Below the pieces are notes generated by a model. It was not told the origin of the DNA, made no database searches, and saw only the letters and a program-made list of their open reading frames with translations. A program made the position numbers and the translations under genes. Below, in pieces: positions 7,961 to 60,248 of a DNA stretch of 64,000 nt; the first letter of the stretch is position 1; each line of letters opens with the position of its first letter. This DNA comes from Heterodontus francisci (lineage: Eukaryota). The stretch lies in assembly GCF_036365525.1 (NCBI RefSeq), contig NW_027140453.1, positions 558,001 to 622,000 on the forward strand, written 5' to 3'.

Positions 7961-8005
7961 GGTGTTTTCTCCTCCAGGGGGACAGCAGAGGGCGAGCTAG
8001 GACCA
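7961..8005 (+). promoter_or_regulatory. CTCF-like motif element (core cagcagagggcg, 7983-7994), homologous to the elements at 57.75 kb and 60.2 kb
   Basis: Matches the CTCF core CCASYAGRKGGC and shares flanks (gtgtt..tctcca.agg/tgacagcagaggg...ggacc) with two V-associated copies. Confidence 0.55.
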
Positions 8006-9357
8006 GGAAACACATCAGACTTCACCAATATTGATTATAAAAAACATCGTTTACATTGTTCTGTAAAATTGTTTCCTTTCTCTCTCTCTTCATGCCTGTT
8101 TCTCTGTCTCTGTTGCTCTTGTTATCTTTCCTCTCTCACACACACTCACTCTCATTCTCTTTCTTTATCCCTGTCTCTCTTTCCTTCTCTCATTTCCTCT
8201 CAGCTCTGTTGCTCTTTCTGTCTCTCACACACACACCCATTCTCATTCTCCCTCTTTATCTCACTCTCTTCTTTCCGTCCCCTCTCTTTCTCGCCTCTCA
8301 TTTCCTCGCTTTCTCTTGCTGTCTGTCTCTATTTCTCTCTCACACGCACTCAGTCTCATTCTGTCTCTCTGTCTCTAATTAATTCTGCCTATCTCCTCTC
8401 ATTTCCTGTCTCTGTGTTGCTCTGTCTCTGTCTCTCCCTGTCTGTCTCTGCACCTCCTATTGCCTCATTCTCTCTATCTGTCACTCGTTCTCTCAATCTC
8501 TCTCTCTCTCTCTTTCGAACTAATTTTCCCTGAATCATTCCATCTCTCAGTGGCTTTGTTAATCAGTCTGTCTCTCTCTCTCTGTCTTTGCCTCAGTCTA
8601 CCTCTCCCTTGCTCTCTCTCAGTTGTTCTCTCTCTCTCATTCTCTCTTTATTTCTCCCTATGTGGGGTTCCCCGGGATGGCCTCTGCCTGTCCGGCTCTG
8701 TTCCCCTCTAAGGTTTTGTTGGTATGATGTGGTCAGAGGGTGCTCTGCAAGGAATACAACGCCAGTGACACTGGTTATTTGACCTATCTGCAGTTTCCAC
8801 AGCAGCAGGGGCGGTTTGATCACACTGCTTATAACGAGCCTCCACCTCTGAAAAGAATCTCAAAGTAGTTTGAGATCTGCTTTCCATATTACTGCTTTCC
8901 AGCTTTAAGACAGGAAACACCACTATCCCCATTTGGTCCCATTGTTGATGAAATTAATGTTCGTAATAGTTACTTTTTGCATTGCTATACATAATCTCCT
9001 CGTCAACCAAATTGAAATAATTTACTGTTCCTTGATGTGAACAGCAGTTAGGATTATTCTGACAGAGTATCATCATTAAACATTACCAATTTTCATTTTT
9101 CTCAGATGCAGACTGAGCTGGTTTGTGTTCATCCTTCCGAGTTTGGTGCATTTATAGTTTTATCAATGCCATAAATCTGATTTATAATTGGGCTTAACCT
9201 GTGGAGCAAATATAAGTGTGAATGTAGCAGCGTGACTGGAGAAGAATAATTTGTCTCCTTCTTATTCCCTCTCTTCTGCTTTTGCCTCTGTCCCGCCCTG
9301 TAACCCGCGGTCGTTCTCTCCCCATTGATTTGGATCCTGTGTCAAGAATCTTGTTAG

Positions 9358-9640
9358 ATGGTTCTCCAGTCCCCGGTGGTCAAAAACCCTGGTTCCCGTG
9401 GAGGAAGCCACGTTCCACAGAAGCATTGGGCAGGGCAACATGACTGAGTGTTGCTTGGACTGGTACTTGCAGATTGGTGACTGCATGGAATGGATCAGGT
9501 AGAGTGTACTTTCTTCATTGAACGACAGGAAAAGGATTGAAACCCAGCACGAGACTCAGGCAAACATTTTCACTCTGTCATTGAAAAGCTCCCGGGTCCA
9601 AGCCAACAGCACTTACTACTGTGGGGCTCACAAGGATACA
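9358..9640 (+). pseudogene. Degenerate TCR V segment (Vdelta/TRDV2-like appearance)
   Basis: Reads VLQSP..[frameshift]..EATFHRSIGQGNMTECCLDWYLQ..MEWIR*...NIFTLSLKSSRVQANSTYYCGA. The first Cys is lost and there is a TAG at 9500-9502. A canonical 23-RSS follows. Confidence 0.8.
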
Positions 9641-9679
9641 CACAGTGTAACTAGAATGCAAGGAAACATGGCAAAAACT
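9641..9679 (+). other. 23-RSS
   Basis: CACAGTG + 23 nt (taactagaatgcaaggaaacatg) + GCAAAAACT. Confidence 0.9.
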
Positions 9680-9834
9680 TGGGAATTGTGTAATACACCT
9701 AACCCCAGTCTCTGGGAGTACGGTGGCACAGCTGTTATTTTACAGGGACTAGTAATCCAGAGGCCTCGACCAAATGATCCAGAGCACAGGAGTTCAAATC
9801 CCACCACAGCAGCTGGGGGAATCTAATTAAACAA

Positions 9835-10245
9835 ACACCACCTTAAATATTCACTCCCTCCGCCACCGACGCACAGTGGCAGCAGTTTGTACCAGCTACA
9901 AGATGTACTGCAGTAACGCACCAAGGTTCCTTTGACAGCACCGTCCAAACACATGAGCTCTACCAACTAGAAGGACAAGGGCAGCAGACGCATGGGAACA
10001 TCACCGTCTGCAAGTTCCCTTCCAAGTCACACACCATCCTGACTTGGAACTATATCACCGTTCCTTCACTTTCGTGGGTCAAAATCCTGGAACACCCTTT
10101 CAAACAGCACTGTGGGTGTACCTACCCCACATGGACCTAGTGGTTCAAGAAGGTAGCTCACCACCACCTTCTCAAGGGCGATTAAGGATAGCCGATAAAT
10201 GCTGGCCTCAACCAGCGTCGCCCAAAATCTCATGAATGAATTAAA
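9835..10245 (+). mobile_element. 3' fragment of the same LINE as 6790-7206 (part of a duplicated block)
   Basis: Near-colinear with 6790-7206, including the same tail and the same downstream flank. Confidence 0.8.
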
Positions 10246-10718
10246 AAAGAGAAAATAACCTCAGCAGGGGGCAAAAAAACCTCGAAATAATGCAACAACA
10301 AACTCAACATTAAAAAAATTCCAACAGCAACTTAAGCAGGGAAGAAAACAAAAAACACAACAAAAACCCCAGCAGGGAAAACACAACAACTACCTCAGCA
10401 GGCGAACAACGCCAACAAATTCAACAACAGATCAGCAGGAGATTCAAGCACCAACAAATTCAACAACCTCAGTCGGAGAAAAACACCAGCAAATACAACA
10501 ACAAATACAACAACAACTTTAGCAGCAGAGCGATACCAACAAATGCAACGACAACTACTGGCAGCCAATGGTAGAGAGAGGGGTGTGGGATCCCCATCAG
10601 GGAGGGAGGTGTTGGACAAACCTGAATCACTTGCTTGAGTCTTCATGTGGCTTCTCACAGGACTCAACTCTCTTCTTTCCACTGATTTCCCAATTGCAGG
10701 ATCAGCTTCCAGTGGAAG

Positions 10719-11211
10719 ATGTATCTGTTACTGAGTCTCATGGTCTTATTTCAAAGTAAGGGATCTTTCTCACCACCACCCCACACACCCATTGTTTGTG
10801 TTAACAGCTCTCTTTCTTATTTTCTTTCTCTGTATCTTTCTCTCCTTCCTTCATTCTTCACATCCCAGTTTGTCCCTGTTCACTGACCTTCTTCTCTCCC
10901 GGTCTCTTCCCGCAGGCGCGATCTCAGCGAGGGTCCACCAGACTCACACCGCCGTCTCCAGATTTCCTGGGGAGGGAGTGGGACTGGAGTGCCATGTGGA
11001 GGGTGAGAGTAGCGGTTACATGTTCTAGTACAGACAGGACCCGGGGAAGGAGCCGCGGCTGATGTTTTACTCTGCAGCTACACCAGGTGTGAACTCAGAG
11101 GGGATGGTGGAGGGTTTCAATGCCAAACGACCGACTGGTTCCCAGTTCAACCTGGAGTCCACCAGCCTGCGGGAGAATCACTCGGCCCTGTATTTCTGTG
11201 CCTGGAGTCTG
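10719..11211 (+). pseudogene. TRBV: TCR beta V segment, TRBV30-like family, nonsense pseudogene (leader 10719-10755, V exon 10916-11211)
   Basis: Leader MYLLLSLMVLFQ|gtaagg and acceptor cccgcag|. V reads SAISARVHQTHTAVSRFPGEGVGLECHVEGESSGYMF*YRQDPGKEPRLMFYS...RPTGSQFNLESTSLRENHSALYFCAWS; the conserved Trp codon has become TAG (11026-11028). Confidence 0.93.
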
Positions 11212-11250
11212 CACAGTGACTCAGAGAGACGCAGCAGTTCAACAAAAACA
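11212..11250 (+). other. 23-RSS
   Basis: CACAGTG + actcagagagacgcagcagttca (23 nt) + ACAAAAACA. Confidence 0.95.
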
Positions 11251-11359
11251 CCAACAGAAACACCTGTTTCAGATAAAAGCCTGCAGCTCTGTATCCTGTT
11301 CGGTTTATCTGTTGCAGTGTGAACATGTCTTCCACATGAAGACACAGAAAGATGTTCAA

Positions 11360-11855
11360 GGATGATATCAGAACTGAGAGGTGATAATGATCAGGAAAAG
11401 ACTGAACAGACTGGGGCTCTTTTCTCCAGAAAAGAGAAGGCTGAGGAGTGACCTGATAGAGCTCTTTAAGATTATGAAAGGGGTTTTGATCAGATAAATG
11501 TAGAGAAGATTTTTTCCATTTGCGGGCGCGTCCAGAAAAAGGGGGAGGGGTCATCAATATAAGACAGTCACCAATAAATCCAATTGGGAATTCGGGAGAA
11601 ACATCTTCACCCAGAGAGTGAGGAGAATGTGGAACTCATTACCACAGGCTGAGGGGAATAGGCAAGATGTATTTAAGCTGGGGGTGGCGGGGGGATGGGG
11701 GGTCGGGGGGGCGTGCTGCATAGGACATGAGGGAGAGAGGAACAGAAGGAGATGTGGCTGGGGGCGAGATGAAGAGGGCGTGGAACGACGTTCGTGTGGA
11801 CCAAAAAGGCCTGCATGGACGTGTCTGGCCGAATGCTCTGTTTCTGTGCTGTAAA
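11360..11855 (+). mobile_element. CR1 LINE 3' fragment
   Basis: LGLFSPEKRRLRSDLIELFKIM and FTQRVRRMWNSLP motifs. Confidence 0.8.
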
Positions 11856-11964
11856 TTCCCTGCAGCTGGAGCGAGGAGCAGGAACACCAACACTGTGGGA
11901 CTAGTCAGTGGAACTGGGGAACTGACTCCTGGGTGAGGAGCAGCTTTTCTTTGTGATCCTCATC

Positions 11965-12290
11965 TAAACCTGTCACAATCGTGTACACCTCTATCAGGTC
12001 TCCACTCAATCTCATTTTCTCCAGGTTTTCCAACCTAACCTTGTAATTAAAATCCCCTATCCCCGAAACCATTGTGGTAAATCTCCTCTACACCCTCTCA
12101 AGGAAACTCACCTCCTTCCTAAAGTGTGGTGAGCAGAACTGGATGCAATTGTCCAGTTGTGGCCTAACTAGAGCTTTATAAAGATTCAGCATAACTTCCC
12201 ATATTTTGTAGGCAGTGCCTCTATTTATGAAGCCCAAGATCTCACAGTTTTGCTCATCTCATATGTTTTGCTATTCCCATATTCTTTGCT
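11965..12290 (-). mobile_element. CR1 LINE fragment
   Basis: Reverse complement of the LVRPQLDNCIQFCSPHFRK...LERV region. Confidence 0.7.
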
Positions 12291-12384
12291 ACTGTTTCGA
12301 AGTACAGGCGCTGCTGTAATGCAGGAAGTGTGGCAGCCAGTTTCCACAAGGCAAGATCCCACGAACTGACAATGTGCAGATCCT

Positions 12385-12900
12385 GCTGAAGTTGTTTTTG
12401 TTTCTTTTGTTTTTTTCTCCTGCTGAAGTTGTTGTTGACTTTGTTGGTGTTTTTCCTGTTGAAGTTGTTGTTGCATTTGTTGCTGTTTTTCCTGCTGAGG
12501 TTGTTGTTGAAATTTTTGGTGTTTTTCCTGTTGAGGTTGTTGTTTTGAATTTGTTGTTGTTTACTCCTGCAGAAGTTGTTGTTGAATTTGTTGGTGTTTT
12601 TCTTGTTGTTGAATTTGTTGGTGCTTTTTCCTTGAGGTTGTTGTTGAATTTGTTGGTGTTTTTCTCCTGCTAAAGTTGTTGTTGACTTTGTTGGTGTTTT
12701 TCTCCTGTTGAAGTTGTTGTTGATTTTATTAGTACTTTATTTTTCTCCTGTTGAAGTTATTGCTGAGCTTGTTAGTGGGTTATTTTTCTGGTGCAGTTGT
12801 TTTTGTATTTTTTCCTGTTTGTCTCCTGCTAAAGTTGCTGTTGAATCTATTGGTGTTTTTTCTCGATGTTGTTGTTTTTCTCCTGAAGTTGTTGTTGAAT
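12385..12900 (-). repeat. CAA-rich degenerate tandem repeat (TTG on +); the same family occurs at 5855-6085, 7210-7520, 10250-10560 and 13620-14050
   Basis: Recurrent unit ~caacaacttcagcagg(g)aaaacaccaacaaattcaa. Confidence 0.8.
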
Positions 12901-13619
12901 TCCATATCATTTAATACCCTCACCTAACATCAATCTAGCAATCTCTGCTTTGGAATGTCTGATTAAACCCCTCAAACCCCCATCTGTAGAGCTTTTTGAG
13001 GGAGAGAGTTCCAGATTTTCACTTCCTGCTGTGTGAACCAGCGTTTCCTGACATCACTCCTAAACAGCCTCACCCCACCTTGCCCTGGACTCCCCCAGCA
13101 GAGGAAATTGTTTCTGTCCATTAACACCATCGAATCCTTTAATCGCCCTAAATATTTCAATGAGATCACCCTTTAATCTCCTATACTTAAGAGAATATGA
13201 CATTAGGCCATGCAAACTGTGAAGCTAATTTAACCCTTTTAGACCTGGTGTCATTACTTCCAAGGCTGAGACATCCTTCCTGAGTTTTGATGCACAGAAC
13301 TCAACATGGTTTCTCCAGAAGGGGACTAATCCGAGCTGCATACAACAGTAACACAACACCCAGCGCTTTCTATTCCAGCTCCCTTGAGGGAAAAGGGACA
13401 ATACTCTTTGTTGTAATAGTTACTTAATGTTTTAATTATTTGACCTGGAAACGAACCTGCAGAAAGGTTATTTCAATGAGCAGGAGTTCACTCTGTGGAA
13501 CAGGGTCCCAGGGAGACGCTGGAAGCAGATATTAGAGAGATTTCACTCAGGGATACACTGAGAGTGAAAGCTGAGTCATGAGGGGTGGTGAGTGTAACAT
13601 GTTCAGGAGGAACAGGGGA

Positions 13620-14050
13620 ATTCAACAACTACTTCAGGAGGGGGAAAAAGAACAACAAATACAACAACTTCAGGAGCAGAAAGACACCAACAAATTCAAC
13701 AACTTCTTCAGGAGAAATAAAAACAAACATCACAACAACTTCAACAGGAAAATTACACCAACAAATTCAACAACAACTTCAGGAAGCAATCACCAACAAA
13801 TCCTGCAACTTTAGGGGAAGGGGGGAGTAAAGAAAACAACTAATATTCTCACAACGTCAGCAGGGGAAACACCAACAACTTCACCAACAACTTTAGGGAA
13901 GTACATCAAGCAATGCAGCAGCAACTTCAGCTGGGGAAAGACACCAACAAGTTCAACAACAACTTCAGTGAAAAAAAGACAATAAATACAGCAACAACTT
14001 CAGCAGGGGAAAAACACTAACAAATTGAACAACATCAGAAGGGGGTAAAA
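13620..14050 (+). repeat. CAA-rich degenerate tandem repeat
   Basis: Same unit as 12385-12900, in the opposite orientation. Confidence 0.8.
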
Positions 14051-14099
14051 CACTGACAAATGGGGAAATTGCACAACTTGTTGAGGTTGATGGGAATTC

Positions 14100-15990
14100 G
14101 TTCACAAAAGCTCCGAGTATCAGACCTGCATGATGTAATCGTTGCAAACAAAGCCCATTTCAGCCTCAATGTGGAAAGGGGAGAGGGAGATTCATAAAAG
14201 GGGCTCAAAGATCTTCTACCAGCACGTAAATAGTAAGTGAGTAGTAAGAGGTAAAGAGGGGTCAAGTAAGGACGGAGAGTGTAATATGTGCTTTGAGGCA
14301 CAGGGCAAAGCTAATATACTTAATGAGAACTTTGTATCAGTGTTCACGAAGGAACTGGAGGCTGAAAATTATCTGCAGAAGCAGAGAGAGTAGAGGCAAT
14401 GGATAGGATAACAATTGAGAGCTGGTACTAAAAAGGCTGGCTATGCTTTGGGTGGATATGTCACCTGGTTCAGATAACTTGTATCCCAGTTTGCGAAAGG
14501 AAGTGGGGGGTAGAGATAGAAGAAGGGCTTGCCGTCATCTTCAAATCTTCCCTGGTTATGGGGGAGGTGCCAGAGGATGACAGAGTGGCAAATCCTTATT
14601 CAAGAAAGGGTGTAAGGACAGTCCGAGCAACTACAGGCCACTTAGTTTAACATCAGTTATGGGTAAGGTTCTAGAAACAATAATCAGAGAAAAATCAATA
14701 GACGGTTAGAGAGGTTCGAGTTTAATTAAGGATAGCCAGCATGGATTTTCAAAAGGCAGGACATTATTGACTAATCTAATTGAATTCTTTGATGAAGCGA
14801 CAGAGAAGGTCGATGGAGTGAATGTGGTGGATGTTGTATATGTGGATTTTAAGAAAGCGCTTGACAAGGTACCACATAAAAGGCTGGTTAACACAACTGA
14901 GGCTCATGGATGAGAGGGTCAGTGTTCAATTGGGTGAAAAAGTGCCGTCAGGACAGGAAACAGCGAATCGTAGTAAATGGTTGCTTTTTAGAATGAGGGA
15001 TGGTAGTCAGTGTTGTTCCCCCATGGGTCAGTGCTGGGACCACTGCTTTTTCTGCTATATATAAATGACTTGGATCTTGAAATACAGAGCAGAATCTCAA
15101 ACTTTGCTCTCCACACCAAACTTGGAGGTGCGGCAAACAGTGTGGATGATATGAACTGCCTGGATCAGGGCATAGATAGGCTAGCAGAATGGACAGAGAG
15201 GTGGTCAATGGAATTTCATACTGACAAGTGTGAGGTGATGCATTTTAGCAGAAGGAATAGGGAGATGCAATATATACTTAATGGCACAGTTGTAAAGATT
15301 GTGCAGGGACAGAGGGACCTGGGGGTGTATGTGCACACATCTTTGAAGGTGGCAGGACATCGTGAGAGAGTGGTTAGGAAAGCAGGTGGGATCTTGGGCT
15401 TCATAAATAAAGACATAGGGCACAAAAGCAGTGAAGCCATTGTGAACATTCTAAAGCTCTGGTTCGTCCCCAAATGGAGAGTTGTGTTCAGTTCTGGTCA
15501 CCACACTTCAGGAAAGATATGAGGGTCCTTGAGAGGGTGCAGAGAAGGTTTACCAGAATGGTTCCAATGATGGGGGACTTTAGTTGCAAGGTTAGGTTGG
15601 AAAAACTGGGTTTGTTCTCCTTAGAACAAAGGTGGTTTGACAGAAATGTACAAGATTATGACAGACTTAGATAACTCAGACAAGAAAAAACGGTTCCCAT
15701 TAACTAATGGTACAATAGGGAGGTTGTAGGTTTGGGTTAGAGATGCAGGGGAATATGAGGAAGAACTTTTTTGGCACTGCGGGTGTTAATGACCTGGGAC
15801 TCGCTGCCCACAGGGTGGTGAAAGCGAAGATGATCAATGACTTCAAGAGGAAGTTGGATTTCCACCTGAGAGAAATAGACTTGCAGGGCTACAGGGATCG
15901 AGCTTGGGGAGTGGACTTACTTCACAGCACCGTGGACAGCCAGCATGAACTCGATGGTCCGAATGGTCTTCTTCAGTGCCGTAAATGGCT
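14100..15990 (+). mobile_element. CR1 LINE, 3' half, many frameshifts
   Basis: NYRPLSLTSV, QHGF, GSVLGPLLFLLYINDLD and QFWSPHFRKD...LERVQRRFTRM motifs, plus a CR1 3' UTR. Confidence 0.9.
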
Positions 15991-16861
15991 CGATGCCTCC
16001 TTTAAAAGAAGCAACCCTTGACTCTTCTGTCCTTACAAAATACTGTCCCATCTCCAACATCCCTTTCCTCTCCGAAATCCTGGAACAAGCTGTGCCCATC
16101 TTTCCCAGAATTCCATGTTTGAATCCATCAGCCCCTTGCTATGGTTCTGATATTAATCCCAGCCATATCAGTAATGGGTCAGTATTTGACAATAGCCTAT
16201 CAATAACTCCCTCAGATATACAGACTAATGCTTCGAGAAATACACCCTTGCCAATGTTTGACTTGAAATTTAAATACAGAGCCCATCGCAGTCCCATCAC
16301 TGTCCCAATGTTAGGGTGTGACCAGCAGTCAGTGTCTGGTCCATTGATAGCTGGGCAGAGGCTTCACAATGTCACGTTTCCTGGTTACACAGCGACTCTC
16401 ACAGCTCTCTCCCTCTCTCTCTCTCTCTCTGGCTGTCTTCACTCTTGTTTGCCTATGTACCTGAATATGTACCGGTGCCTTTTCAGGAGATCCTATCTGT
16501 GCCTCTGATCGAAACAGTCCATTGTCCTCAGTCTGTGAGACTCATCTGACAAGCACGACATCAGTACTGGGTCAAATTGTGGCAATGTGCTCTGTATCCT
16601 CTCAGATTAATGGACACTGAGTATCCGACAGAAAATATTCACAGGATAAATACCTCCCATATCAGTAATGTGTCAGTATTGAGCAATAGGCTGTTTATAT
16701 TAGATCATAAATGGACACTGAGTGTCCCAGACAGATCATTCTCATGATAAGTTGCTTCAATATGTCAGCAACAGTCCAGGACCCCAAACTCTCCTTCCAG
16801 GTGAAACAGCGATTCACTTGGACTTTCAATATCAAATAGAAAGAGGGAGTTATTGACAGGC

Positions 16862-17368
16862 TATTTTATATCGTCCCTCACGACCACCTGCCAAAGTGCT
16901 TTACAGCCAATGAAATGCTTGTTTTGCTGCAGTGTAGTCACTGTTGTAATGTAAGAATCATGGCAGCTGATTTGTGCACAGCAAGCTCCCACAAACAGCA
17001 ATGTGAGAATGACCAGGTAATCTGTTTTAATGACGTTGATGGAGGGATAATTATTGGCCAGGACACCAGGGAGAACTCCCCTGTGTTTCTTCAAAATAGT
17101 CCAATGGGATCGTTTATATCCACGGGAGTAAGAGGATGGAGTCTCTGTTTAATGTGACATCTGAAAGAGGGCATCCTGACAGTGCAGCACTCACTCAGTA
17201 CTGCCGCTCTGACAGTGCAGCACTCACTCAGTACAGACCCTCTGACAGTGCAGCACTCCCTCAGTACTGCCCCTCTGAAAGTGCAGCGCTCCCTCAGTAC
17301 TGACGCTCCGACAATGTAACATTCCCTCAGTACTGACCTTCCAACAGTGCAGCACTCCCTCAGTACTG
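16862..17368 (-). mobile_element. Deu-domain SINE (SacSINE1/AmnSINE-like) with an internal ~32-bp tandem expansion (17177-17368)
   Basis: The minus strand carries ggggagttctccctggtgtcctggccaat...ttgctgtttgtgggagcttgctgtgcac...ttggctgtaaagcactttg, typical of DeuSINEs. It includes ~6 copies of tgacagtgcagcactccctcagtactg. Confidence 0.8.
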
Positions 17369-42610: not shown

Positions 42611-44638
42611 TCAGAAGGAGGGAGAAAGGGAGAGAGAGACAATAAAGATGTGATACACACCATCCCACACCGTCTGCGTTCCATCGTTGGACTCTAACAC
42701 CATCTCTCCATCAACTCATCCATGGGGAAAAGATCCTGGAGAGGGGCATTGGGGTGGGATTTGGAGATAAGCGTCAGGACTGGGACAGAGAGAGCAGGGG
42801 AATCAGACTGGACATTCACACACACACATACACTGTAATCAGCTTGCAATTCACCTGGGCACAGAGACACAGAGACTGAAACACAGAAACTCACCTTCAG
42901 AAACCAGCCGCATGGAAAGAAAGAATGGAGGCTGATGTTGTCCTAATATATCCCAGAACCTGTCACTCAAAACAGCCAGTCCACCCAAAATACAGCTTAT
43001 CCAACCAGCTACAAGCTTCCTCCATCTGGACACTCCCTCCCAGGTATGAGACAGTCCAAGGTGAGTTTCTGTGCAAACAGGGAATGGTAGAGAGAGGGAT
43101 ATTCCAGCCATATCCCAAATGGACCATTCCAGACAGAAACCTGTCTGTCTGTCTGTCTCTCTCTCCCTCCCCCAAAAACCTCATGAACAGAGCAGAAAAG
43201 CTGCTGTCATTTAAAACCTGGAGGGGCCGGTTTGGATAATGGCCATTTAACACTGATTGTATTAAATGTCTTTCACTATTCACATCCAGTTAACAGAAAG
43301 TTCAGAAAATGACTCACTGCAATTACCTTGAAATTGTGACAAAGTGTTATTGCTGGAGAGGCCGGTTTGACTGCAGTATAAACAGGCAGTTTTTATTCGG
43401 TTTTTCAATTTCACTGTATGACAAAGAGTGAAACTGGAGCCAGGTTAATGCGGCAGCCAAGAGAACTTTTATAACCAGTGACATTTCACACAACAATTCG
43501 TACCCAAATTTACTGTTATATTTGTCAATGATTCTTTGTAGTTTATTTGCTGCTGCTGTATTTATGCATTAGCCTGTAATCAATCGAAAAAACCTCCTGA
43601 ACATTCGCCAGTTTAATGTTACAAGGGTTTACAAAGCTGGGAAATGGACATTTATCTTAAATGATATTTAAGATCTTCCACTTTTCACCTCCAGTTTATA
43701 TAAAGTTCAGCGATAAAGACCTCTACATTCTGACAAAGAGTTTTTACTGCTGCAATAAAGTGTCACTTGTTTCCATTTGCTTCCTGACTGTTTCTTTCCT
43801 CTGTTCTCCTGGGGGATTCAGAGGGATTTTTGTTCATTGTTTGTCCACATTCCTCTGCAGCTGCTGTCCTGGAGAAATTAATTATATTGTATTCAAAATC
43901 TTTCCCTCAGTTTGGAGATATGAGGAGAGACTGTTTTCACTAGCAGAGGGGAGAAACAAATAGGCAGGGAGTTGCTCTGGTCTGGAATTCACTGTCTGAC
44001 AGGTTTCTGAAAGCAGATTCAATATTAACTTTCAAAATACAATCGGATCAAAACTTCAATTTCTCTGAATTATAGTAGAGAAGATACCAGCAGAGAGAAG
44101 TGAGAGCGAGACAGAGATGCCATAACCATAGTGATGAAGAATTGAACACCACTTATATAGAGAGTTTTTATTTGAAAATGATTGAGTTTAATTTGATGCT
44201 GTTAATTTATTTATCCATTACCTTTAATCATTTAAAATAATTTTCCAAACAGTAACGAGTTTAATGTTACAAGTGTTTACATCGTAGTAAAATAGCCACT
44301 TTACACAAACTGTACTGAAATTATTTTATTGAGCATCTCAAATTTACAGAAAGAAAATTCCGCAAACTTGTAAAAGCTTTCAAACATTCAGCAACACAGA
44401 ATCTCGATCAGCAACGGCTCAGCATCTCCATCTCCTGGTGCCCCTCTCTCACTGCAGTTACAGTCTCCCTCTCACCATCTCCATCTGCTGGTGTCCCTCT
44501 CTCACTGCAGTTGCTGCCCCCTCTCACCATCTCCATCTGCTGGTGTCCCTGCCTCACTGCAGTTACTGCCCTTCTCGCCACCTCACAATCACTGCCATTT
44601 GCAGCTTTGTCCACTGGCGGCGGTTGTTGACAAGGCAA

Positions 44639-44742
44639 CCACTAGGTGGCGCAGTACTAGCACATGCGCAAATGTACACTGTTCCAATTAAACGTCATGG
44701 TCTGCCACGTGCAGGCAGCTGCCAGGACTAAAGATGGCGCCG
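44639..44742 (+). promoter_or_regulatory. Motif cluster: CTCF (CCACTAGGTGGCGC, 44639-44652), NRF1-like (acatgcgca), E-box (cacgtg) and YY1-like (aagatggcgcc)
   Basis: Close matches to established consensus motifs within ~100 bp. Confidence 0.55.
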
Positions 44743-44851
44743 GTCAAATAATCACAAAGGTGGGTGGAGGGTGGGAGGTGGAGCTGGGGGTCTGGGGGGG
44801 GGGGAGGGGGAATGGGATTTAGTTACAGTGTTTGAAACCCTTCAGCTCTTT

Positions 44852-51080: not shown

Positions 51081-51423
51081 TTTAGTTTAGAGATACAGCT
51101 CTGAAACAGGCCCTTCGGCCCACCGAGTCTGTGCCGACCATCAACCACCATTTATATACTAATCCTACACTAATTCCATATTCCTACCACATCCCCACCT
51201 GTCCCTATATTTCCCGACCACCTACGTATACTAGGGACAATTTATAATGGCCAATTTACCTATCAACCTGCAAGTCTTTGGCATGTCGGGGGAAACCGGA
51301 GCACCCAGAGGAAACCCACGCAGACACAGGGAAAACTTGCAAACTCCACACAGGCAGAATTGAACCCGGGTCGCTGGAGATCTGAGGCTGCGGTGCTAAC
51401 CACTGCGCCACTGTGCCACCCAC
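51081..51423 (-). mobile_element. V-SINE (HE1-like), full length with a CR1-like tail
   Basis: Head ggtggcacagtggcgcagtggttagcac, V-domain, and a 3' ggccgaagggcctgtttc...(ctaaa)n tail shared with CR1. Confidence 0.9.
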
Positions 51424-51795
51424 ATATTTTCAAACTGCAGGGACGTCCCCAGCAAGGGCAAGAATTGCAGGTTCAAAATTAACCAATAAATGGACGAAAC
51501 CATTTCTGTCCAAGGAGAGAGAGAGGGAGAGATGGTGTGAGAGAGGCACAGGCACAGTCATGGACTGCGGCGGGGAAAGAGGGAGAAGGAGATCGAGGGA
51601 GAGAGAGAAAGAGATGGAGAGAGACAGACATGAGAGGCAGAGACAAATAGAGGATGAGACAAGATGTAACAGTCAGTAACAATCCTCATTATCTGCCCAG
51701 TCCTGTGTTGGGAGTTTAGTGTGAATGTTTTACGCGTGAGTGTTGGATCAGTGTTTGATATTTTCACACTGCAGTGACCTTCCCAACAAGGCAGG

Positions 51796-52396
51796 TATAG
51801 AATAGAAGAGCTTGGAGGTTATGCTGAAACTGCATAACCCATTGGTTAGACCACAACTCGAGTACTGTGTGCAGTTCTGGTCACATCGTTACAGAAAGGA
51901 TGCAATTGCACTGGAGAGGGTACAGAGGAGATTTACGAGGATGTTGCCAGAACTGGAAAATGCAGCTATGAGGGAAGATTGGATCGGCTGTGGCTGTTCT
52001 CCTTGGCACAGAGAAGGCTGACGGGAGATCTGACTGAAATGTGAAGGGCTTGGATAGAGTGGAAGTGAAGGGTCGATTCACCTTAGTAGAGAGCTCAGCG
52101 ATGAAGGGGCATAGACTTAAAGTGATTGGTAGAAAGATTAGAAGGGAGATGAGGAAAATATTTTTCACTCAGAGGGTGGTGAGGGTCTGGAACAGATGGC
52201 CTGAAAGGGGAGTTGAGGCGGAAAACCTCAAGTCATTCAAAAGGAGTCTGGATATGCACCTCAAGTGCCTGAATCTACAGGGCTACGGAACAAAGGGTGG
52301 CAGGTGGGATTAGAGTAGGAAGATCGTTATTTGTCTGGCACAGATACGATGAGACAAGTGGCCTCTTTCTGTGCCTTAAAATTTCTGTGATTCTAA
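51796..52396 (+). mobile_element. CR1 LINE 3' fragment
   Basis: LVRPQLEYCVQFWS and FTQRVVRVWN motifs. Confidence 0.88.
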
Positions 52397-52454
52397 AGGA
52401 AAGAGTTACTGGTTCTAAATTAACAAAGACATGTCTGAAAGCATTGCTGTCCTG

Positions 52455-53285
52455 GGACAGAGAGAGGAAGGGAGAGATGAAAAGAGAGAGAGAGCGAGAG
52501 AGAGGCAGAGAAATAGGGGGAAGGGAGAGACAGAGAGAGAGGGAGAGACAGAGAGAGAGGGAAGAAACAGACCGAGAGACAGGGGGGAGACAGAGACAGA
52601 GCGAGAAAGAGAAACAGAGACAGAGAAGGAGGGAGAGACAGAAGCAGCGGAAATCGAGACAGGGAAGACAGAGACAGCGAGGGAGATAAAGAAAGACCGA
52701 AAGGGAGCGGCACAGAGAGAGAGGGAGGGAGAGGGGGAGGGGCAGAGGGAGAGGGAAAGACAGACGGAGGGACAGACAGAGAGGGGAGACAGAGAAGGTG
52801 GGAGAGACAGAAACAGGGGAGATAGAGACAAGGGAGACAGAGGGGAGGGAAATTCAGACAGAGAGGGAGTGGCAGAGAGAGGGATAGAGCGGTAGAGGGA
52901 GAGAGGGAGGGACAGAGGGAGAGGGAAAGACAGACAGAGGGACAGATGCAGACGGAGAGACAGAGACAGAGAGAACGATTGGGAGAGACAGAGATTGGGG
53001 GAGACAGGGTAGAGGGAGAGACCGAGACAAAGAGAAAGATGGGAGAGATAGGGATTGGCAGAGAGAGGGAGAGTGAAAGCAGGAGAGACCAAGAGAGAGC
53101 GAGGCAGAGCGGGAGAGACAGAGGGAGGTACAGAGGGAGGGACAGAGGGAGAGACAGACAGAGAGACAGAGAGAGAGACAGAGAGAGACGGGGAGACCGA
53201 GAGAGAGAGAGACAGGGCAAAGAGAGAGAGAGAGGGAGTAAGAGAGTGAAGATAGAAAAATAGAGAGAGACAGAGATAGAGAGTG
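52455..53285 (+). repeat. GA-rich low-complexity tract
   Basis: (GA)n-derived composition. Confidence 0.85.
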
Positions 53286-53289
53286 GGCA

Positions 53290-54690
53290 GACTACCAGAG
53301 CAACTTTAGGTCAGTTATTTTAACTTTGGTGGTAGAAAATATCCAGAAAAAATAATTCGGATCACCATCAATAGTCACATGGATAAATGTGAGTTAATTC
53401 AGGAAAGGCAGTATGGATTTCATAAGGGAAAATCATGTTTAACAAACTGGCTGGAGTTTTTTGAGGAGGTAACTGAGAGGGTTGATGAGGGCAATGTTGT
53501 TGATGTGGTGTACATGGATTTTCAAAAGGCGTTTGATACAGTGCCACACAACAGACGTGTGAGCAAACTTGTAGCTCATAGAATAAATACTACGGTAGCA
53601 ACATGGATACGGAATTGGCTGAGTGGCAGGAAACAAAGAGTTGTGATTAATGGATGTTTTTCAGGCTGAATGAAGTTTTGTAGTGGAGTTCCCCAGGGGT
53701 CAGGGTTGGGACCCTTGAGTTTCTTCATATGTATATTAATGACCGAGACCTCGGTGTACAGGGCACAATTTCAAAGTTTGCAGATGATACGAAACTTGGA
53801 AGCATTGTGAACTGTGAGGACGATAGTGACGAATTTCAAAAAGACATAGACAAGTTGGTGGAATGGGCAGGCAGGTGGCAGATAACGTTCAATGCATAGA
53901 AATGTGAAGTGATTCATTTTGGTAGGAAGAACATGGAGTGACAATATAGAATAAAGGGAACAATTCCAAAGTGGGAGCAGGAGCAGAGGGACCTGGGTGT
54001 AAATGTACAGAAGTCATTGAAAGTGGCAGTCAGGTTGAGAGAGTGGTTAATAAAGCATACAGTATCCTGGGATTTATTAATAGGGGCACAGAGTACAAGA
54101 GCAAGGAGGTTATGTAGAACTTGTATTAGACACTAGTTCATCCTCAACACGAGTATTGCGTCCATTTCTGAGAGCCACACTTTAGGAAAGATGTGAGGGC
54201 ATTGGACAGAGTACAGAAGAGATTCACGAGAATGGTTCCAGGGATGAGGAATTTCAGTTATGAAGATAGATTGGAGAAGTTAGGACTGTTTTCCTTGGAG
54301 AAGAGAAGGCTGAGAGGTGATTTGATAGAAGTATTCAACATCATGAGGGATCTGGACAGAGCAGATAGGGAGAAACTGTTCCCACTTGTGAAAGGATCGA
54401 GAACGAGATGACACAGACAGAAAATATTTGGTCAGAGAAGCAAAAGTGACATGGGGAAAATCTTTTTCATGCAGTGTGTGGTTAATGTCTGGAATGCGCT
54501 GCCTGAGAACGTGGTGGAGGCAGGTTCAATTGAAGCATTCAAAAGGGAATTAGACAGTGATATGAAAAGGAAGAATGTGCAGGGTTATGAAGAGAAGGCA
54601 GGGTAATGGAACTGAGAGAATTGCACTCTCGGAAATCCAGTGCAGACAAGATGGCCCGAATGGCCTCCTTAAGCACTGCAACAACTCTGA
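53290..54690 (+). mobile_element. CR1 LINE RT/3' fragment (degenerate)
   Basis: QYGFHKGKSCLTN, DFQKAFDTV, FADDTK and LGLFSLEKRRLRGDLIEVF motifs. Confidence 0.9.
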
Positions 54691-55129
54691 TACAGAGGCA
54701 GAGAAAGAGAGAAGGGGAGAGACAGAGAGAGAGGCAGAGGGAGAGAGAGCATGTGAGAGAGACAGAGACAGAGAAGGTGAAACAGAGAGAGGGGCAGGCA
54801 GTGGCAAAGTNNNNNNNNNNNNNNNNNNNNNNNNNNNNNNNNNNNNNNNNNNNNNNNNNNNNNNNNNNNNNNNNNNNNNNNNNNNNNNNNNNNNNNNNNN
54901 NNNNNNNNNNNNNNNNNNNNNNNNNNNNNNNNNNNNNNNNNNNNNNNNNNNNNNNNNNAGGAGACAGCGTGGGAGGGAGAGATGATGTGAGAGAAAAACA
55001 GAGTAAAGTATTCAGACAGAATAAGAGTGACAGAGAGAGGGAGAGACAGTGACAAGGAGAGGGTCAAAGAGAGACAGAGACAGAAAGAGAGAAGGAGAGG
55101 CACAGAAAGGGAGAGCGAGAAAGAGAGAG

Positions 55130-57066
55130 AGATATCACACGGTGGAGATACAATAATAAGAGAACCACACAGAGACACTCCCTGCGGAGATACTATAATA
55201 ACAGACCCACTCAGTCACTCTCCTTTGTGGAGATGCTATGATAACAGACCCACTCAGTAGCTCTCCCAGTGGAGATACTATAATAACAGACACACTCACA
55301 GACTCTCTCTCTAACGATACTATAATAACAGACTCACTCGGTGACTCTCCCTGTCGAGATACTATGATTACAGACGCACTCAGTGAATCTCCCTGTGGAG
55401 ATACTGCAATTTCAGATCTACTCACTGACTCTCCTTGTGGTGATAGTTTAAGAACAGACCCACTCAATGATTGTCCCAGTTGAGATACGATATTTACAGA
55501 CCCACTCAGTAACTCTCCCTGTGGAGATACGATAATAACAGACCAACTCAGTGACACTCCTTGTGGAGATACTATAATAACAGTGCAACTCAGTGACTCT
55601 CCTTGTGGATATACTATAATAACAGACCCACTCAGTGACTCTCCCTGTGGAGATAGTGTAATAACAGACCCACTCAGTGACTCTCCCTGTGGACATGCGA
55701 CAGCAACAGACCCACTCAATGATTGTCCCAGTTGAGATACTATAATTGCAGACCGACACAGTGACTCCCCTCATGGAGATGCAATAATAACAGACCCACT
55801 CAGTGACTCTCCCTGTGGAGATACTATAATAACAGACCCACTCAGTGACTCTCTCTGTGGAGATACTATAATAACAGACCGACTCAGTGACTCTCCCTGT
55901 GGAGATACTATAATAACAGACCCAATCAGTGACTCTCCCTGTGGAGATACTATAATAACTGACCGACTCAGTGACTCTCCCTGTGCAGAGACTGCAATAA
56001 CAGACATAATCATTAACTCTCCCTGTGGAGATACTGTAATACCAGAGACACTCAGTGACACTCCCACTGGAGATACCATAATAACAGACACACTCAGTTT
56101 CTCTCCCTGTGGAGATACTATAATAACAGACCCACTCAATGACTCTCCGCGAGGAGGTACTATAATAAGAGACACAATCATACACTCTCCCTGTGGAGAT
56201 ACTATAATAACAGATCCACTCAGAAACACTCCCTGTGGAGATACTATAATAACAGACCAACTCAGTGACTCTCCCTGCGGAGATTCTATAATAACAGACA
56301 CAATAATTCAGTCTCCCTGTGGAGATACTATAATACCAGAGAGACTCAGTGACTCTCCCTGTGTAGATAATACAAAAACAGACCCACTCAGTGGCTCCCC
56401 CTGTGCAGATGCTAAAGAAACAGATTCACACAGTGACTCTCCCTGTGGAGATACTACAACAACAGAGACACTTACTGACTCTCCCACTTGAGATACTATA
56501 ATAACAGACATAATCATTCACCATCCCTGCGGAGATACTATAATAACAGCCGCACTCAGAGACTCTCCCTCAGGAGATACTATAATAACAGACCAACTCA
56601 GTGACCCTCCTTGTGGAGATATTATAATAACAGACCCACTCAGTGACTCTCACTGTGGAGACACTGTAATTTCAGATCCACTCACTGACACTGCCTGTGG
56701 TGATAGTATAAGAACAGACCCACTCAATGAATGTCCCAGTTGAGATACTATAATTACAGAGAGACACAGTGACTCTCCCTGTGGAGATGCAATAATAACA
56801 GACACAATCATTCACTCTCCCTGTGGAGATGCAATAATAACAGACCCACAAAGTGACTCTCACTGTGGAAATACTATAATAACATACCCACTCAGTGACT
56901 CTCCTTGTGGAGATACTATAACAACAGACGCACTCAGTGACTCTCCCTTTGGAGATACACTAATAACAGACCGACTCCACTGGGAGATTCACTGAGTGGG
57001 TCTGTTATTATAATATCTCCACAGGGAGAGTCACTGAGTGGGTCTGTTATTATAGTATCTGCACGG
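55130..57066 (+). repeat. 42-bp satellite (cagacccactcagtgactctccctgtggagatactataataa), ~44 copies; the last ~2 units are inverted
   Basis: Tandem units read directly; reverse-complement units at ~56985-57066. Confidence 0.95.
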
Positions 57067-57079
57067 GGTGCAGATACTC

Positions 57080-57545
57080 TGTAAACTCCCACCCTGACCT
57101 CTCTGTCCTCGACCTCCTTCTCTGCTCCAATGAAGCTCAACAGAAACTCGAAGAACAGCACCTCATCTTTCAATTGGGCACTTTACAGCTTTCTGAACTC
57201 AACAGCTAGTTTAACAATTTCTGATCATAACCACTGCTCCGGTTTATTTGGACAGAGGCTTGTTGGTAATGATTGTGTTTCTGCCAGTTCTGCCTCTTCT
57301 AGACCCATCTTTTGTTCTTTACTTGACCCATTAACTTCCCCTTTGTCTTGCACCAGCCTCAGTTTTGTTATTCAATCTATTTTGCATTTCTCCCATTCCC
57401 CGTCTCTCTGACTTTGTGCTGCTTAAAAGTTAATAGATCTGTAAATCCTTCCAGTTCTGCTGAAAGATCTACGACCTGATATGCTAATATTTTTTCTCCC
57501 TCCACAGAGGCTGTCTGATCTGATTAACATTTCCATCCTTATTTA
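57080..57545 (+). mobile_element. Penelope-like element 3' fragment (GIY-YIG C-terminus and 3' repeat)
   Basis: DLSVLDLLLCSNEAQQKLEEQHLIFQLGTLQLSELN resembles the Penelope endonuclease C-terminus (..E..LI..LGTL.P.GLN). Confidence 0.7.
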
Positions 57546-57740
57546 TTTATAACCCAGAAATGCAACGAGCACCAATATAGTGACAGAGCACCCAGAACCG
57601 AAACCATCCAGCATCTGCGGGACCTTGTGTTCAGTTCACCAGTCTGTAACAGGGATGTAGTTACTTAATTATCAGGAGCGGTTCATAGACAAGTTTCAAA
57701 GTCCCTATTGAAACATCATCAATAATCTGATCCTTATCAC

Positions 57741-57786
57741 GGTCCAACACCGCCCTCTGCTGTCACTGTGGAGAAAGACAACACTG
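57741..57786 (-). promoter_or_regulatory. CTCF-like element downstream of the 59-kb V segment (core 57751-57762)
   Basis: Minus strand gtgttgtctttctccacagtgaCAGCAGAGGGCGgtgttggacc. Confidence 0.6.
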
Positions 57787-57835
57787 TCAGTGAATAAACC
57801 ACAACAGTGTCTGTATATCTATTTACCTATCTATC

Positions 57836-58627
57836 NNNNNNNNNNNNNNNNNNNNNNNNNNNNNNNNNNNNNNNNNNNNNNNNNNNNNNNNNNNNNNNNN
57901 NNNNNNNNNNNNNNNNNNNNNNNNNNNNNNNNNNNNNNNNNNNNNNNNNNNNNNNNNNNNNNNNNNNNNNNNNNNNNNNNNNNNNNNNNNNNNNNNNNNN
58001 NNNNNNNNNNNNNNNNNNNNNNNNNNNNNNNNNNNNNNNNNNNNNNNNNNNNNNNNNNNNNNNNNNNNNNNNNNNNNNNNNNNNNNNNNNNNNNNNNNNN
58101 NNNNNNNNNNNNNNNNNNNNNNNNNNNNNNNNNNNNNNNNNNNNNNNNNNNNNNNNNNNNNNNNNNNNNNNNNNNNNNNNNNNNNNNNNNNNNNNNNNNN
58201 NNNNNNNNNNNNNNNNNNNNNNNNNNNNNNNNNNNNNNNNNNNNNNNNNNNNNNNNNNNNNNNNNNNNNNNNNNNNNNNNNNNNNNNNNNNNNNNNNNNN
58301 NNNNNNNNNNNNNNNNNNNNNNNNNNNNNNNNNNNNNNNTATCTNNNNNNNNNNNNNNNNNNNNNNNNNNNNNNNNNNNNNNNNNNNNNNNNNNNNNNNN
58401 NNNNNNNNNNNNNNNNNNNNNNNNNNNNNNNNNNNNNNNNNNNNNNNNNNNNNNNNNNNNNNNNNNNNNNNNNNNNNNNNNNNNNNNNNNNNNNNNNNNN
58501 NNNNNNNNNNNNNNNNNNNNNNNNNNNNNNNNNNNNNNNNNNNNNNNNNNNNNNNNNNNNNNNNNNNNNNNNNNNNNNNNNNNNNNNNNNNNNNNNNNNN
58601 NNNNNNNNNNNNNNNNNNNNNNNNNNN
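57836..58627. other. N-gap or masked block; the others are 32878-33007 and 54811-54958
   Basis: Runs of n; this one starts in a (tatc)n tract. Confidence 0.99.
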
Positions 58628-58904
58628 CATTAAACCCTTTCAGAATCTCTCGAAGAACACAAAAGGTTTATCCTTCAGTCTTCTCTTTTCTGGTTCAGAC
58701 TACTTTGATCGCTATAACTTCTCAGTATCGGTATCATTCCTCGAAATTCTATCTCGCAATTTTCCACTGTCTCGAAATCTAATCTCTTTCTATCTAAATC
58801 CGCCCTGTCTTCTTGTGAAAAACATGTTCCCAATGACAAAAACACCCAGCAGGATGCAGCACCGTCTGGGTTTATCTGAAACAGGTGTTTCCTGTTGCCT
58901 TTGG

Positions 58905-58943
58905 GGTTTTTGTTGAACTGCTCCATCTCTCTGAGTCACTGTT
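58905..58943 (-). other. 23-RSS with a defective heptamer (AACAGTG)
   Basis: AACAGTG + actcagagagatggagcagttca (23 nt) + ACAAAAACC. Confidence 0.9.
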
Positions 58944-59396
58944 AGGACTCCAGGCACAGAAATACACGGCCGAGTGATTCTCCCGCAGGCTGGAGGACTC
59001 CAGGTTGAACTGGGAGTCAGTTGGTCTCTCGGCGGTGAAACCGCCCACCGTCCCCTCTGGATCTACATAGTTAGCAGTACTGGAGTAAAACATCAACAGC
59101 GGCTCCTTCCCCGGATATTGTCTGTACCAGTACATTCCAGCAGTACTGGTGCCCTCCAATGTGCACCTCAGTTCCACTGCCTCTCCACGCAATCTGGAGA
59201 CTGCGGCGGGAGTCTGGTGGATCGTCTGTGAGTTCACATCTGGGAGAGAGATGGAGAGAAGAGCAGATCAGTAAACAGGAAACTTCTGGGAATGAAAGGG
59301 AGACAGGGAGAAGAGAGGAAAGTTATTAACGATAATCTTTGCATTTCACACTCACTTACAATGAAACAGGATTATCAGACACAGTAATAGATTCAT
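58944..59396 (-). CDS. TRBV: TCR beta V segment, TRBV30-like, open reading frame (leader 59360-59396, V exon 58944-59239)
   Basis: MNLLLCLIILFH|gtaagt ... cccag| YVNSQTIHQTPAAVSRLRGEAVELRCTLEGTSTAGMYWYRQYPGKEPLLMFYS...RPTDSQFNLESSSLRENHSAVYFCAWS. Both Cys and the Trp are intact. Confidence 0.95.
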
Positions 59397-60195
59397 CTTT
59401 CACGACAACTTGTTCTCTTAATAGACACAGGAGTGAGATCAGGAGCTTAGAGTCTTGTAACGGTCCAAATCCACTCTTTTCAAATCATTGGGAGGAACAT
59501 GAAGAGCATTAGGATGTGATACAATGTTGGAGACGCCCATTCACCCAGTTCAACAAATCAGAATTGAATTGGCTGCCATTCTGCTTCTCTCTCTCTCTAT
59601 CTATCTCTATCTCAGTTTACCTTCCGCTCTCTTGCACTCTCTCTCTGTCTCTCTCTCTCTCTCCCCTCATGTGTCTAGGTTTATGTCTCTCACTCTCTTC
59701 CTTTCTCAGACTCTCTCTCCCTCTCTAACTCAGTTTATCTTCACTCACTTTCTCTCTCTGACTCTCTGTCTCCTCATGTATCTAAGGTTATGTCACCCAT
59801 TCCCTCCTTCTCTCTCTCTCCCTCTCTCTTACTCTTCTTATCTCTTCAGTTTTTTTCCCTCTCTCTGTCTCTCTCTAGATCTATCTCCCTATCTGTCGCA
59901 GGTTCTTTATCTCAGTCACTCTTTCTCTCTCAGTGTCTTTCTCTCTCTCATTATGTGTCTCTTGCTGTCTCACTGTCTTTGCCTCTATCTCCGTCTCCCT
60001 CTCTGTCTCAGTCTCTTTAACTCTACCTGTCGTTTTTCCTCTCTCTCACTAGATCTCTCTCTCACACACACATACACTCTCTTTCTCTCTCTAACGAAGT
60101 GGGTGTCCTTGTCCTGTTGATGTGTATCAAGCTGGATCTACATGATCTCCTGCTCTTTCAGTTTTCTCACTAAATCCTTCTCAAAGCCATTGTCC

Positions 60196-60248
60196 GGTCC
60201 ATGGTGCTGGATCCCCCTCTGCTGTCCCTGTGGAGAAGGTAAACACAG
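60196..60248 (-). promoter_or_regulatory. CTCF-like element ~265 bp downstream of the 60.5-kb V RSS (core 60213-60224)
   Basis: Minus strand gtgtttaccttctccacagggaCAGCAGAGGGGGatccagcaccatggacc, homologous to 57741-57786. Confidence 0.5.

What the first reader, a model, noticed from the sequence alone, without database searches (positions are those of the whole stretch)
7961..60248. Conserved CTCF-like element travelling with V cassettes, in convergent arrangement
Seen: three homologous ~45-bp elements with core CAGCAGAGGG(C/G)G lie at 7961-8005 (+), 57741-57786 (-) and 60196-60248 (-). The latter two lie 3' of V RSSs (~265 bp away; ~1.1 kb including a ~790-nt gap) in the same orientation as the V. 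A fourth strong site is at 44639 (+). The + and - sites face each other. Known: in mouse Igh and Tcr loci, V-proximal CTCF-binding elements and cohesin loop extrusion control V access to RAG. Inference: V-associated CTCF elements may date back to cartilaginous fish. I am not aware of this being described for shark TCR loci.
Basis: partly seen in the sequence, partly recalled or inferred. Interest (0 to 1): 0.7.

Follow-up and report, generated by a model that had tools for sequence, protein, structure and literature searches.

The report
Decaying CTCF motif behind shark V-genes
The element is a fixed piece of the DNA copied along behind one family of shark T-cell-receptor beta V genes; it likely began as a binding site for the genome-folding protein CTCF, but it is no better preserved than its surroundings, most copies have lost key letters, and the face-to-face layout in this window is likely a by-product of duplication and a mobile repeat.

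Summary
The three elements are at the stated places. They belong to the 3' flank of one Vbeta family in a multi-cluster shark TCR-beta locus: 86 copies in 1.26 Mb, 81 behind such a V on its strand. Core identity between sublineages (0.63-0.88) equals that of the flank (0.65-0.86), substitutions do not spare key CTCF positions, and only 16 of 86 copies reach 13 bits. The window copies score 17.3, 13.9 and 9.0. The majority letters of seven sublineages score 18.8 bits, so a CTCF-site origin is likely, and one sublineage keeps an intact core. The convergence is incidental: 7961 is an orphan copy in an inverted duplicate, and 44636 lies in a genome-wide repeat. The element is also a 3' splice site: one RNA-type contig splices into it. 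The general idea of V-linked CTCF motifs in shark TCR-beta has better support elsewhere in the locus (tandem arrays 73 bp behind another family's RSS; a site beside D). This scan noted those before on other DNA of this genome. Binding is untested.

The parts
57741..57790 (-). Element, sublineage B: best CTCF-like core of the three (19-mer 57766-57748, 17.3 bits), overlapping a 3' splice-site-like sequence (CTGAC 57790-57786, AG 57767-57766); 1177 nt behind the heptamer at 58943
60196..60260 (-). Element, sublineage A: weak core (19-mer 60228-60210, 9.0 bits; key C replaced by G); AG at 60229-60228; 298 nt behind the heptamer at 60526. Same sublineage as the reference copy on which the spliced contig was laid
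7961..8005 (+). Element, sublineage D (19-mer 7979-7997, 13.9 bits); orphan copy with no V of its family upstream; two paralogous D copies lie 2.2-2.5 kb behind such a V
44636..44654 (+). Strong CTCF motif (21.2 bits, 0 mismatches) inside a dispersed repeat; not V-linked
44418..44571 (-). 52-bp tandem repeat (2.9 copies) with two CTCF-like cores (13.9 bits) and an upstream-motif match; longer arrays of it lie behind another V family elsewhere on the contig
58905..59239 (-). Open Vbeta exon of the family that carries the element (59239-58944) and its 23-RSS with non-canonical heptamer AACAGTG
60488..60610 (-). 3' fragment of a Vbeta of the same family with 23-RSS (pseudogene)
10916..11250 (+). 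Vbeta of the same family with an in-frame stop, and 23-RSS; no element found behind it
9353..9679 (+). Degenerate V pseudogene of another family with 23-RSS, 1.66 kb downstream of the 7961 element
63826..64000 (-). 3' part of a Vbeta of a third family with 23-RSS; no element behind it

Best explanation
The element is a fixed part of the 3' flank of one shark Vbeta family, copied with the V cassette, and it likely descends from a single CTCF-binding site that is now mostly decaying. Shown: it follows the V on the same strand, splits into seven sublineages, and five of them carry their own hit in a key CTCF position. Inferred: the shared ancestor was a strong site in V orientation. Sublineage B (13 of 85 typed copies, including 57741-57786) keeps all key positions and would still bind CTCF. 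These V genes lie 3' of Cbeta and inverted, so a bound B copy would point back at the D-J-C cluster, face the 21-bit site found 5' of D, and help anchor a cohesin loop for inversional V-to-DJ joining. The copies at 60196 (weak) and 7961 (orphan, pointing away) are likely passengers. The same letters also form a usable 3' splice site for unrearranged V transcripts, likely a minor use.
For: Linkage: 81 of 86 profile hits in 1,264 kb have a V of this family as the preceding same-strand V within 6 kb; 68 of 75 such V with an RSS have the element next. Origin: majority letters of the seven sublineages score 18.8 bits; 1 of 3900 dinucleotide shuffles of 400-nt flanks reaches that, 26 reach 13. Decay: all six key positions are kept in 18 of 85 copies, sublineages B and D only; 15 sublineage changes cost 3.58 bits on average against 3.36 for random changes; core identity equals RSS-side flank identity in six sublineage pairs. 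Context: 251 sites of 13 bits or more in 1,264 kb against 4 in 200 kb of background; a 21-bit site 5' of D in 5 of 5 clusters, pointing towards D-J-C and the 3' arrays; 13 of 13 B copies point to the nearest Cbeta. Skate has CTCF orientation bias at TAD borders (PMC10115646, passages); mouse Vbeta CBEs face D-J CBEs and inversional joining works (PMC10772921, passages).
Against: No binding data. The matrix is recalled from memory and is human. None of the seven sublineage representatives has an upstream-motif match of 6 of 10 or better at 15/16 nt. Within sublineages the core is somewhat less variable than the flank (15 of 98 against 138 of 602 segregating sites, p=0.11), and a core-centred alignment showed a peak at the element, so weak constraint is not excluded. 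Among independent site types near V genes only 8 of 14 share the V strand, so the 35-to-4 strand bias of clusters is largely duplication. Five of 13 B copies have a non-CAC heptamer as nearest upstream family RSS. A 19-bit minus-strand site lies between Cbeta and four of the 3' arrays and could intercept loops first.
Confidence: 0.5

Rival explanations
1. Chance motif: an ordinary piece of flank that happens to resemble a CTCF core and was amplified with the V cassette; never bound.
For: No excess conservation, no sparing of key positions, no upstream motif, first core base A in place of C in the majority sequence.
Against: An 18.8-bit majority sequence is rare by chance (1 of 3900 shuffled flanks; about 1% after allowing for nine families by my estimate), and other V families carry same-strand sites with upstream motifs.
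Confidence: 0.2
2. The block is kept as a 3' splice site (branch point, pyrimidine tract, AG) for a downstream exon of unrearranged V transcripts; the CTCF likeness is secondary.
For: The AG is kept in 77 of 85 copies (4 more have one 2 nt upstream), the tract is 0.72 pyrimidine against 0.41 in the flank, CTGAC is present in 55 of 85. One contig of run X6 joins the RSS-side exon to the element; read with the two letters between, this is a GT..AG splice of 231 nt. Two X5 contigs and one X6 contig stop matching at that boundary while two DNA-run contigs run through.
Against: The donor used is present in only 10 of 75 family members and in neither window V. Unspliced contigs cross the site in all three RNA-type runs. 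The joint rests on one contig with a 24-nt side, from a second organism, in a run only guessed to be RNA. True V-exon acceptors have 0.94 pyrimidine. AG retention in 6 of 7 sublineages is within chance.
Confidence: 0.15
3. One reading: a conserved, functional V-proximal CTCF element in most copies, with sublineage differences grading affinity and V usage, and the facing sites in the window forming a loop.
For: Fixed place and strand behind the V; 35 of 86 copies score 11 bits or more; within-sublineage core variation is slightly low; 44636 (+) and 57766 (-) do face each other in three segmental copies.
Against: Conservation test failed; 51 of 86 copies score under 11 bits; 44636 is repeat-borne; 7961 has no V of its own and points away from the nearest Cbeta; no D, J or C between the facing sites.
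Confidence: 0.15

Closest known systems
Mouse Tcrb Vbeta CBEs facing 5'PC, CBE1 and CBE3 (PMC5859386, PMC10772921; passages seen)
   Same: CTCF-type motif among Vbeta genes, on the V strand, pointing at D-J-C where an opposing strong motif lies near D.
   Different: Mouse sites are ChIP-validated, mostly near promoters or intergenic, in a 5' deletional array. Here the motif is 3' of the RSS of one family, mostly degenerate, in arrays that lie 3' of Cbeta and inverted, in a locus with at least 21 Cbeta exons; binding untested.
RSS-associated CTCF sites of mouse and human VH genes (PMC6746451; passages seen)
   Same: Family-specific, 3' of the RSS, same orientation as the V, inherited with the V family.
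   Different: VH sites lie at a fixed 17-19 (or 48) bp from the nonamer and are more conserved than the spacer. This element lies about 280 to over 1900 nt from the heptamer and is no more conserved than its flank. The tandem arrays at +73 behind another family here are the closer match.
3'-inverted TRBV clade, mouse Trbv31 (PMC11754216, PMC10772921; passages seen)
   Same: The carrier family lies 3' of Cbeta in inverted orientation; best TCR-beta matches in PDB are Mel5 beta chains (that Mel5 uses TRBV30 is recalled).
   Different: Dozens of copies per cluster rather than one; orthology not tested by a tree.

Membership tests
V-associated CTCF-binding element (CBE) | Match to the CTCF core motif | tested here: inconclusive
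   16 of 86 copies reach 13 bits; window copies 17.3, 13.9, 9.0; majority of sublineages 18.8; recalled human matrix
V-associated CTCF-binding element (CBE) | Same orientation as the V gene | tested here: met
   81 of 86 copies follow a family V on its strand; one duplication history, not independent events
V-associated CTCF-binding element (CBE) | Motif more conserved than the surrounding flank | tested here: not met
   core 0.63-0.88 against RSS-side flank 0.65-0.86 in six pairs; key positions not spared
V-associated CTCF-binding element (CBE) | Convergent partner at the D-J-C recombination centre | tested here: met
   21-bit site 5' of D in 5 of 5 clusters; 73 of 85 elements, all 13 B copies and none of 5 D copies, point to the nearest Cbeta; sequence only
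V-associated CTCF-binding element (CBE) | CTCF and cohesin occupancy in thymocytes; effect on V usage | not testable with these tools
   no ChIP, ATAC or Hi-C run was listed
RSS-associated Igh-type CBE | Fixed short distance from the RSS nonamer (17-19 or 48 bp) | tested here: not met
   about 280-1900 nt or more from the heptamer, varying by sublineage
Extended CTCF site (upstream motif, zinc fingers 9-11) | CTGCAG-type motif 15-16 nt before the core | tested here: not met
   0 of 7 sublineage representatives reach 6 of 10 at either spacing; 8 of 26 site families in the locus do; motif from PMC12885311
U2-type 3' splice site | Branch point, pyrimidine tract, AG | tested here: met
   AG 77 of 85, tract 0.72 against 0.41, CTGAC 55 of 85
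U2-type 3' splice site | Used in RNA | tested here: inconclusive
   one spliced contig and three contig ends at the boundary; unspliced contigs also cross; runs only guessed to be RNA

The most novel reading that the evidence does not exclude
The shark multi-cluster TCR-beta locus already uses the CTCF orientation code known from mouse: V-linked sites, from this element's graded sublineages to expandable tandem arrays, all point at a strong site beside D and set how often each inverted 3' V is joined by inversion, with this element doubling as the splice acceptor of germline V transcripts.
Probability: 0.2. Interest if true: 0.65.

Novelty: new member of a known kind. Interest (0 to 1): 0.3.

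Why it matters
For the named element the result is mostly cautionary: a motif that travels with duplicated V cassettes looks conserved and oriented without selection. At locus level, if the stronger sites are bound, CTCF-guided folding of antigen-receptor loci would predate the split of cartilaginous and bony fish. The natural series of intact and broken copies behind near-identical V genes is a ready test of whether a V-linked site changes V usage in inversional rearrangement.

Tried and rejected
Promoter element of the next V: rejected; the preceding V is of one family in 81 of 86 copies while the next V varies in family and distance. Dispersed mobile element: rejected for the element (all 100 listed exact matches, and 60 of 60 for sublineage B, on the V contigs), accepted for 44636. 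Degenerate D segment: the core shares 10 letters with the D-beta coding sequence but I saw no 12- or 23-RSS around it; left as coincidence. A core-centred alignment suggested a conservation peak that vanished in RSS-anchored pairwise alignments; the first is biased by insertions in the flanks. The site near 8796 has an upstream-motif match but scores -1.7 bits. The C1-set family search did not reach Cbeta; a shark TCR-beta protein did. Cross-species DNA comparison was not possible: no other eukaryote genome is held, and predicted shark proteins gave no usable flank. Run search: no RNA holder on record, four runs guessed as RNA with small shares; the first laying was dominated by repeats and listed no joint at the element. 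Rows dropped before counts: 15 of 175 V hits without an RSS match, 1 of 86 element hits with E above 1e-3 before typing, 4 half-length Cbeta-like hits and 2 more at 50-53% identity.
Full report
Setting. The window is bases 558001-622000 of contig C407 of a 6.0-Gb genome. Its open V exon is a V-set domain whose best single TCR matches in PDB are beta chains. An alignment of eight V families from the contig found shark TCR-beta chains at up to 91% identity to the first row, labelled Heterodontus francisci and Ginglymostoma cirratum. A search with one of them gave 21 Cbeta exons on six contigs. I fetched C407:158001-1422000 (1,264 kb with the window) and 20 arbitrary 10-kb stretches of other contigs as background. 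The stretch holds 175 V hits in nine families, five D and five Cbeta. The 26 V in blocks 5' of a D include none of the 83 members of the family that carries the element; for 81 of those 83 the first Cbeta met in the V's direction is on the other strand. So these V genes lie 3' of Cbeta and inverted, like mouse Trbv31.

Observation. A pattern made from the three copies has 108 exact matches genome-wide and 0 for the control; the 100 listed are all on the seven V-array contigs. With the human CTCF matrix (counts recalled from memory; 12.8 bits is p=1e-5) they score 13.9 (7979 +), 17.3 (57766 -), 9.0 (60228 -) and 21.2 (44636 +).

What the element is. A profile found 86 copies in the 1,264 kb and 1 hit in the background. 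For 81, the preceding same-strand V within 6 kb is of one family, and 68 of 75 family members with an RSS have the element next. It is therefore a 3' flank feature, not a promoter of the next V. It lies about 280-430 nt from the heptamer in compact copies and 1-2 kb or more where repeats have been inserted. The 85 typed copies fall into seven sublineages, A to G. Window copies are D (7961), B (57741) and A (60196).

Conservation test. Only 16 of 86 copies reach 13 bits, 19 score 11-13, and 51 score less. All six key positions are kept in 18 of 85, in B and D only. The 15 differences of sublineage majorities from the overall majority cost 3.58 bits on average against 3.36 for random changes, with no relation to information content. 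In RSS-anchored pairwise alignments of up to three copies per sublineage, core identity against RSS-side flank identity was 0.72/0.73 (A-E), 0.63/0.69 (A-C), 0.69/0.69 (E-C), 0.72/0.67 (A-B), 0.67/0.65 (E-B) and 0.88/0.86 (C-B); D, F and G were not in this test. Among the collinear A, E, F, G the best kept piece is 16-25 nt past the core start (0.90), not the core (0.72). Against this reading: a core-centred alignment peaked at the element, identity falls further 3' (0.56-0.71), and within sublineages the core has 15 of 98 segregating sites against 138 of 602 (p=0.11).

Origin. The majority over the seven sublineages scores 18.8 bits, and most of the damaging changes are private to one sublineage, so the ancestor probably looked like it (inference). 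One of 3900 shuffled 400-nt flanks reaches this score (39 or 40 of the 75 flanks were shuffled). I read it as an old CTCF site in V orientation that has decayed in five lineages. It lacks the upstream motif that zinc fingers 9-11 read (motif and the 15-nt spacing from PMC12885311, passages).

Convergence. The window joins a small plus-strand block of two V pseudogenes to a large minus-strand array. The plus block is an inverted copy of DNA at contig 800-818 kb and elsewhere. Its element at 7961 has no family V upstream, whereas two paralogues lie 2.2-2.5 kb behind one; all five D copies point away from the nearest Cbeta. The 44636 site lies in a dispersed repeat: 2712 candidates, and 31 of the 40 scored are on other contigs at 91-92%. 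No D, J or C was found between the facing sites. The pairing that would matter is different: a 21-bit site lies 5' of D in 5 of 5 clusters and points towards D-J-C and the inverted arrays, and 73 of 85 elements, including all 13 B copies, point to the nearest Cbeta. A 19-bit site 3' of Cbeta, on the arrays' strand, was found in five clusters counting both orientations, like mouse CBE3.

Second function. The element also reads as a 3' splice site: AG at a fixed place in 77 of 85 copies, a tract of 0.72 pyrimidine against 0.41 in the flank, CTGAC upstream in 55. On an A-type reference copy, one contig of run X6 joins 8432 to 8198 with two letters between; this equals a GT..AG splice from a donor just behind the RSS, intron 231 nt as predicted for one A copy. 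Two X5 contigs and one X6 contig stop matching at 8197-8198, while two DNA-run contigs cross. Limits: contigs only, runs guessed as RNA, 24-nt side, a second organism for the joint, unspliced contigs in all three RNA-type runs, and that donor in only 10 of 75 family members and in neither window V. I take it as real but likely minor use.

Sites of 13 bits or more number 251 in 1,264 kb against 4 in 200 kb (19.9 and 2.0 per 100 kb; GC 0.458 and 0.429), much of it from tandem arrays. In another V family, 21 of 22 members have a same-strand site of 11 bits or more starting at +73 (19) or +118 (2) from the heptamer, in 1 to 11 copies about 45 bp apart, up to 23 bits, none on the other strand. Eight of 26 site families have an upstream-motif match at 15 or 16 nt against 10 matches over 16 other spacings (p=0.0003; 0.001 after merging two related families). 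Strand agreement is 35 to 4 by cluster but only 8 of 14 by independent site type. I found these before consulting earlier notes; the scan had recorded the array, the strand-tracking and the V-D pair on other pieces of this genome, unchecked.

Literature. Mouse Igh RSS-associated sites lie 17-19 bp from the nonamer and are more conserved than the spacer (PMC6746451, passages). Mouse Tcrb V sites all face the D-J sites (PMC5859386, passages) and support inversional joining (PMC10772921, passages). Skate shows CTCF orientation bias at TAD borders (PMC10115646, passages). A 3'-inverted TRBV clade is reported in amniotes, salmonids and some amphibians (PMC11754216, passages). PMC10322711 has no mention of CTCF in its main text (passages; supplements not read). 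Searches for CTCF with shark or cartilaginous-fish antigen-receptor terms and for horn-shark TCR organisation listed no paper on CTCF sites in a shark TCR locus, judged from titles and abstract starts; the library lacks most subscription journals.

Verdict. Real, family-specific element; likely a mostly decayed V-linked CTCF site with one intact sublineage and a coincident splice acceptor; the window's convergence is incidental. New member of a known kind, interest 0.3.

Noticed in passing
G000:C407 (e.g. L003:3434-3480 and 5620-5760, minus strand): Tandem arrays, about 45-bp period and 1-11 copies, of strong CTCF motifs with an upstream-motif match, starting 73 nt behind the heptamer of one V family; 21 of 22 members. 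A much better CBE candidate than the given element.
   Followed up: partly
G000 contigs C407, C761, C779, C1317, C1675, C2233: At least 21 near-identical Cbeta exons; on C407 the D-J-C clusters stand in head-to-head pairs with small 5' V blocks and large inverted 3' V arrays.
   Followed up: partly
G000:C407:158001-1422000: All 83 members of the element's V family lie outside the 5' blocks, 81 inverted to the first Cbeta they face; this would extend the 3'-inverted TRBV clade to sharks. No tree was built.
   Followed up: partly
G000:C407:456270, 456381, 458681, 494020 and equivalents: A 21-bit site 5' of D in all five clusters, with an opposing 17-bit site 111 nt away in three, and a 19-bit site 3' of Cbeta.
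   Followed up: partly
window 44418-44571; G000:C407:796027-797019 and 162.5-164.7 kb: 51-53-bp tandem repeat with CTCF-like core and upstream motif; long arrays lie 0.7-2 kb behind one V family on the opposite strand.
   Followed up: partly
window 44636-44750: The repeat-borne CTCF site is followed by E-box-, NRF1- and YY1-like words (motif names recalled); looks like a promoter of a dispersed repeat.
   Followed up: no
window 58943 and paralogues: Open V genes of one subfamily have non-CAC heptamers (AACAGTG, CTCAGTG) yet carry the strongest element sublineage.
   Followed up: no
G000:C407:461249 and window 60218-60228: The D-beta coding sequence shares its first 10 letters with the element's core region; no RSS seen around the element.
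   Followed up: partly
window 55142-57068: 42-bp minisatellite, about 44 copies plus a short inverted piece, whose unit shares a short word with the element's 5' part.
   Followed up: no
window 58875-58943: The V frame stays open through the RSS for about 24 codons in this family; the spliced germline form would add about 19 more in A-type copies.
   Followed up: no
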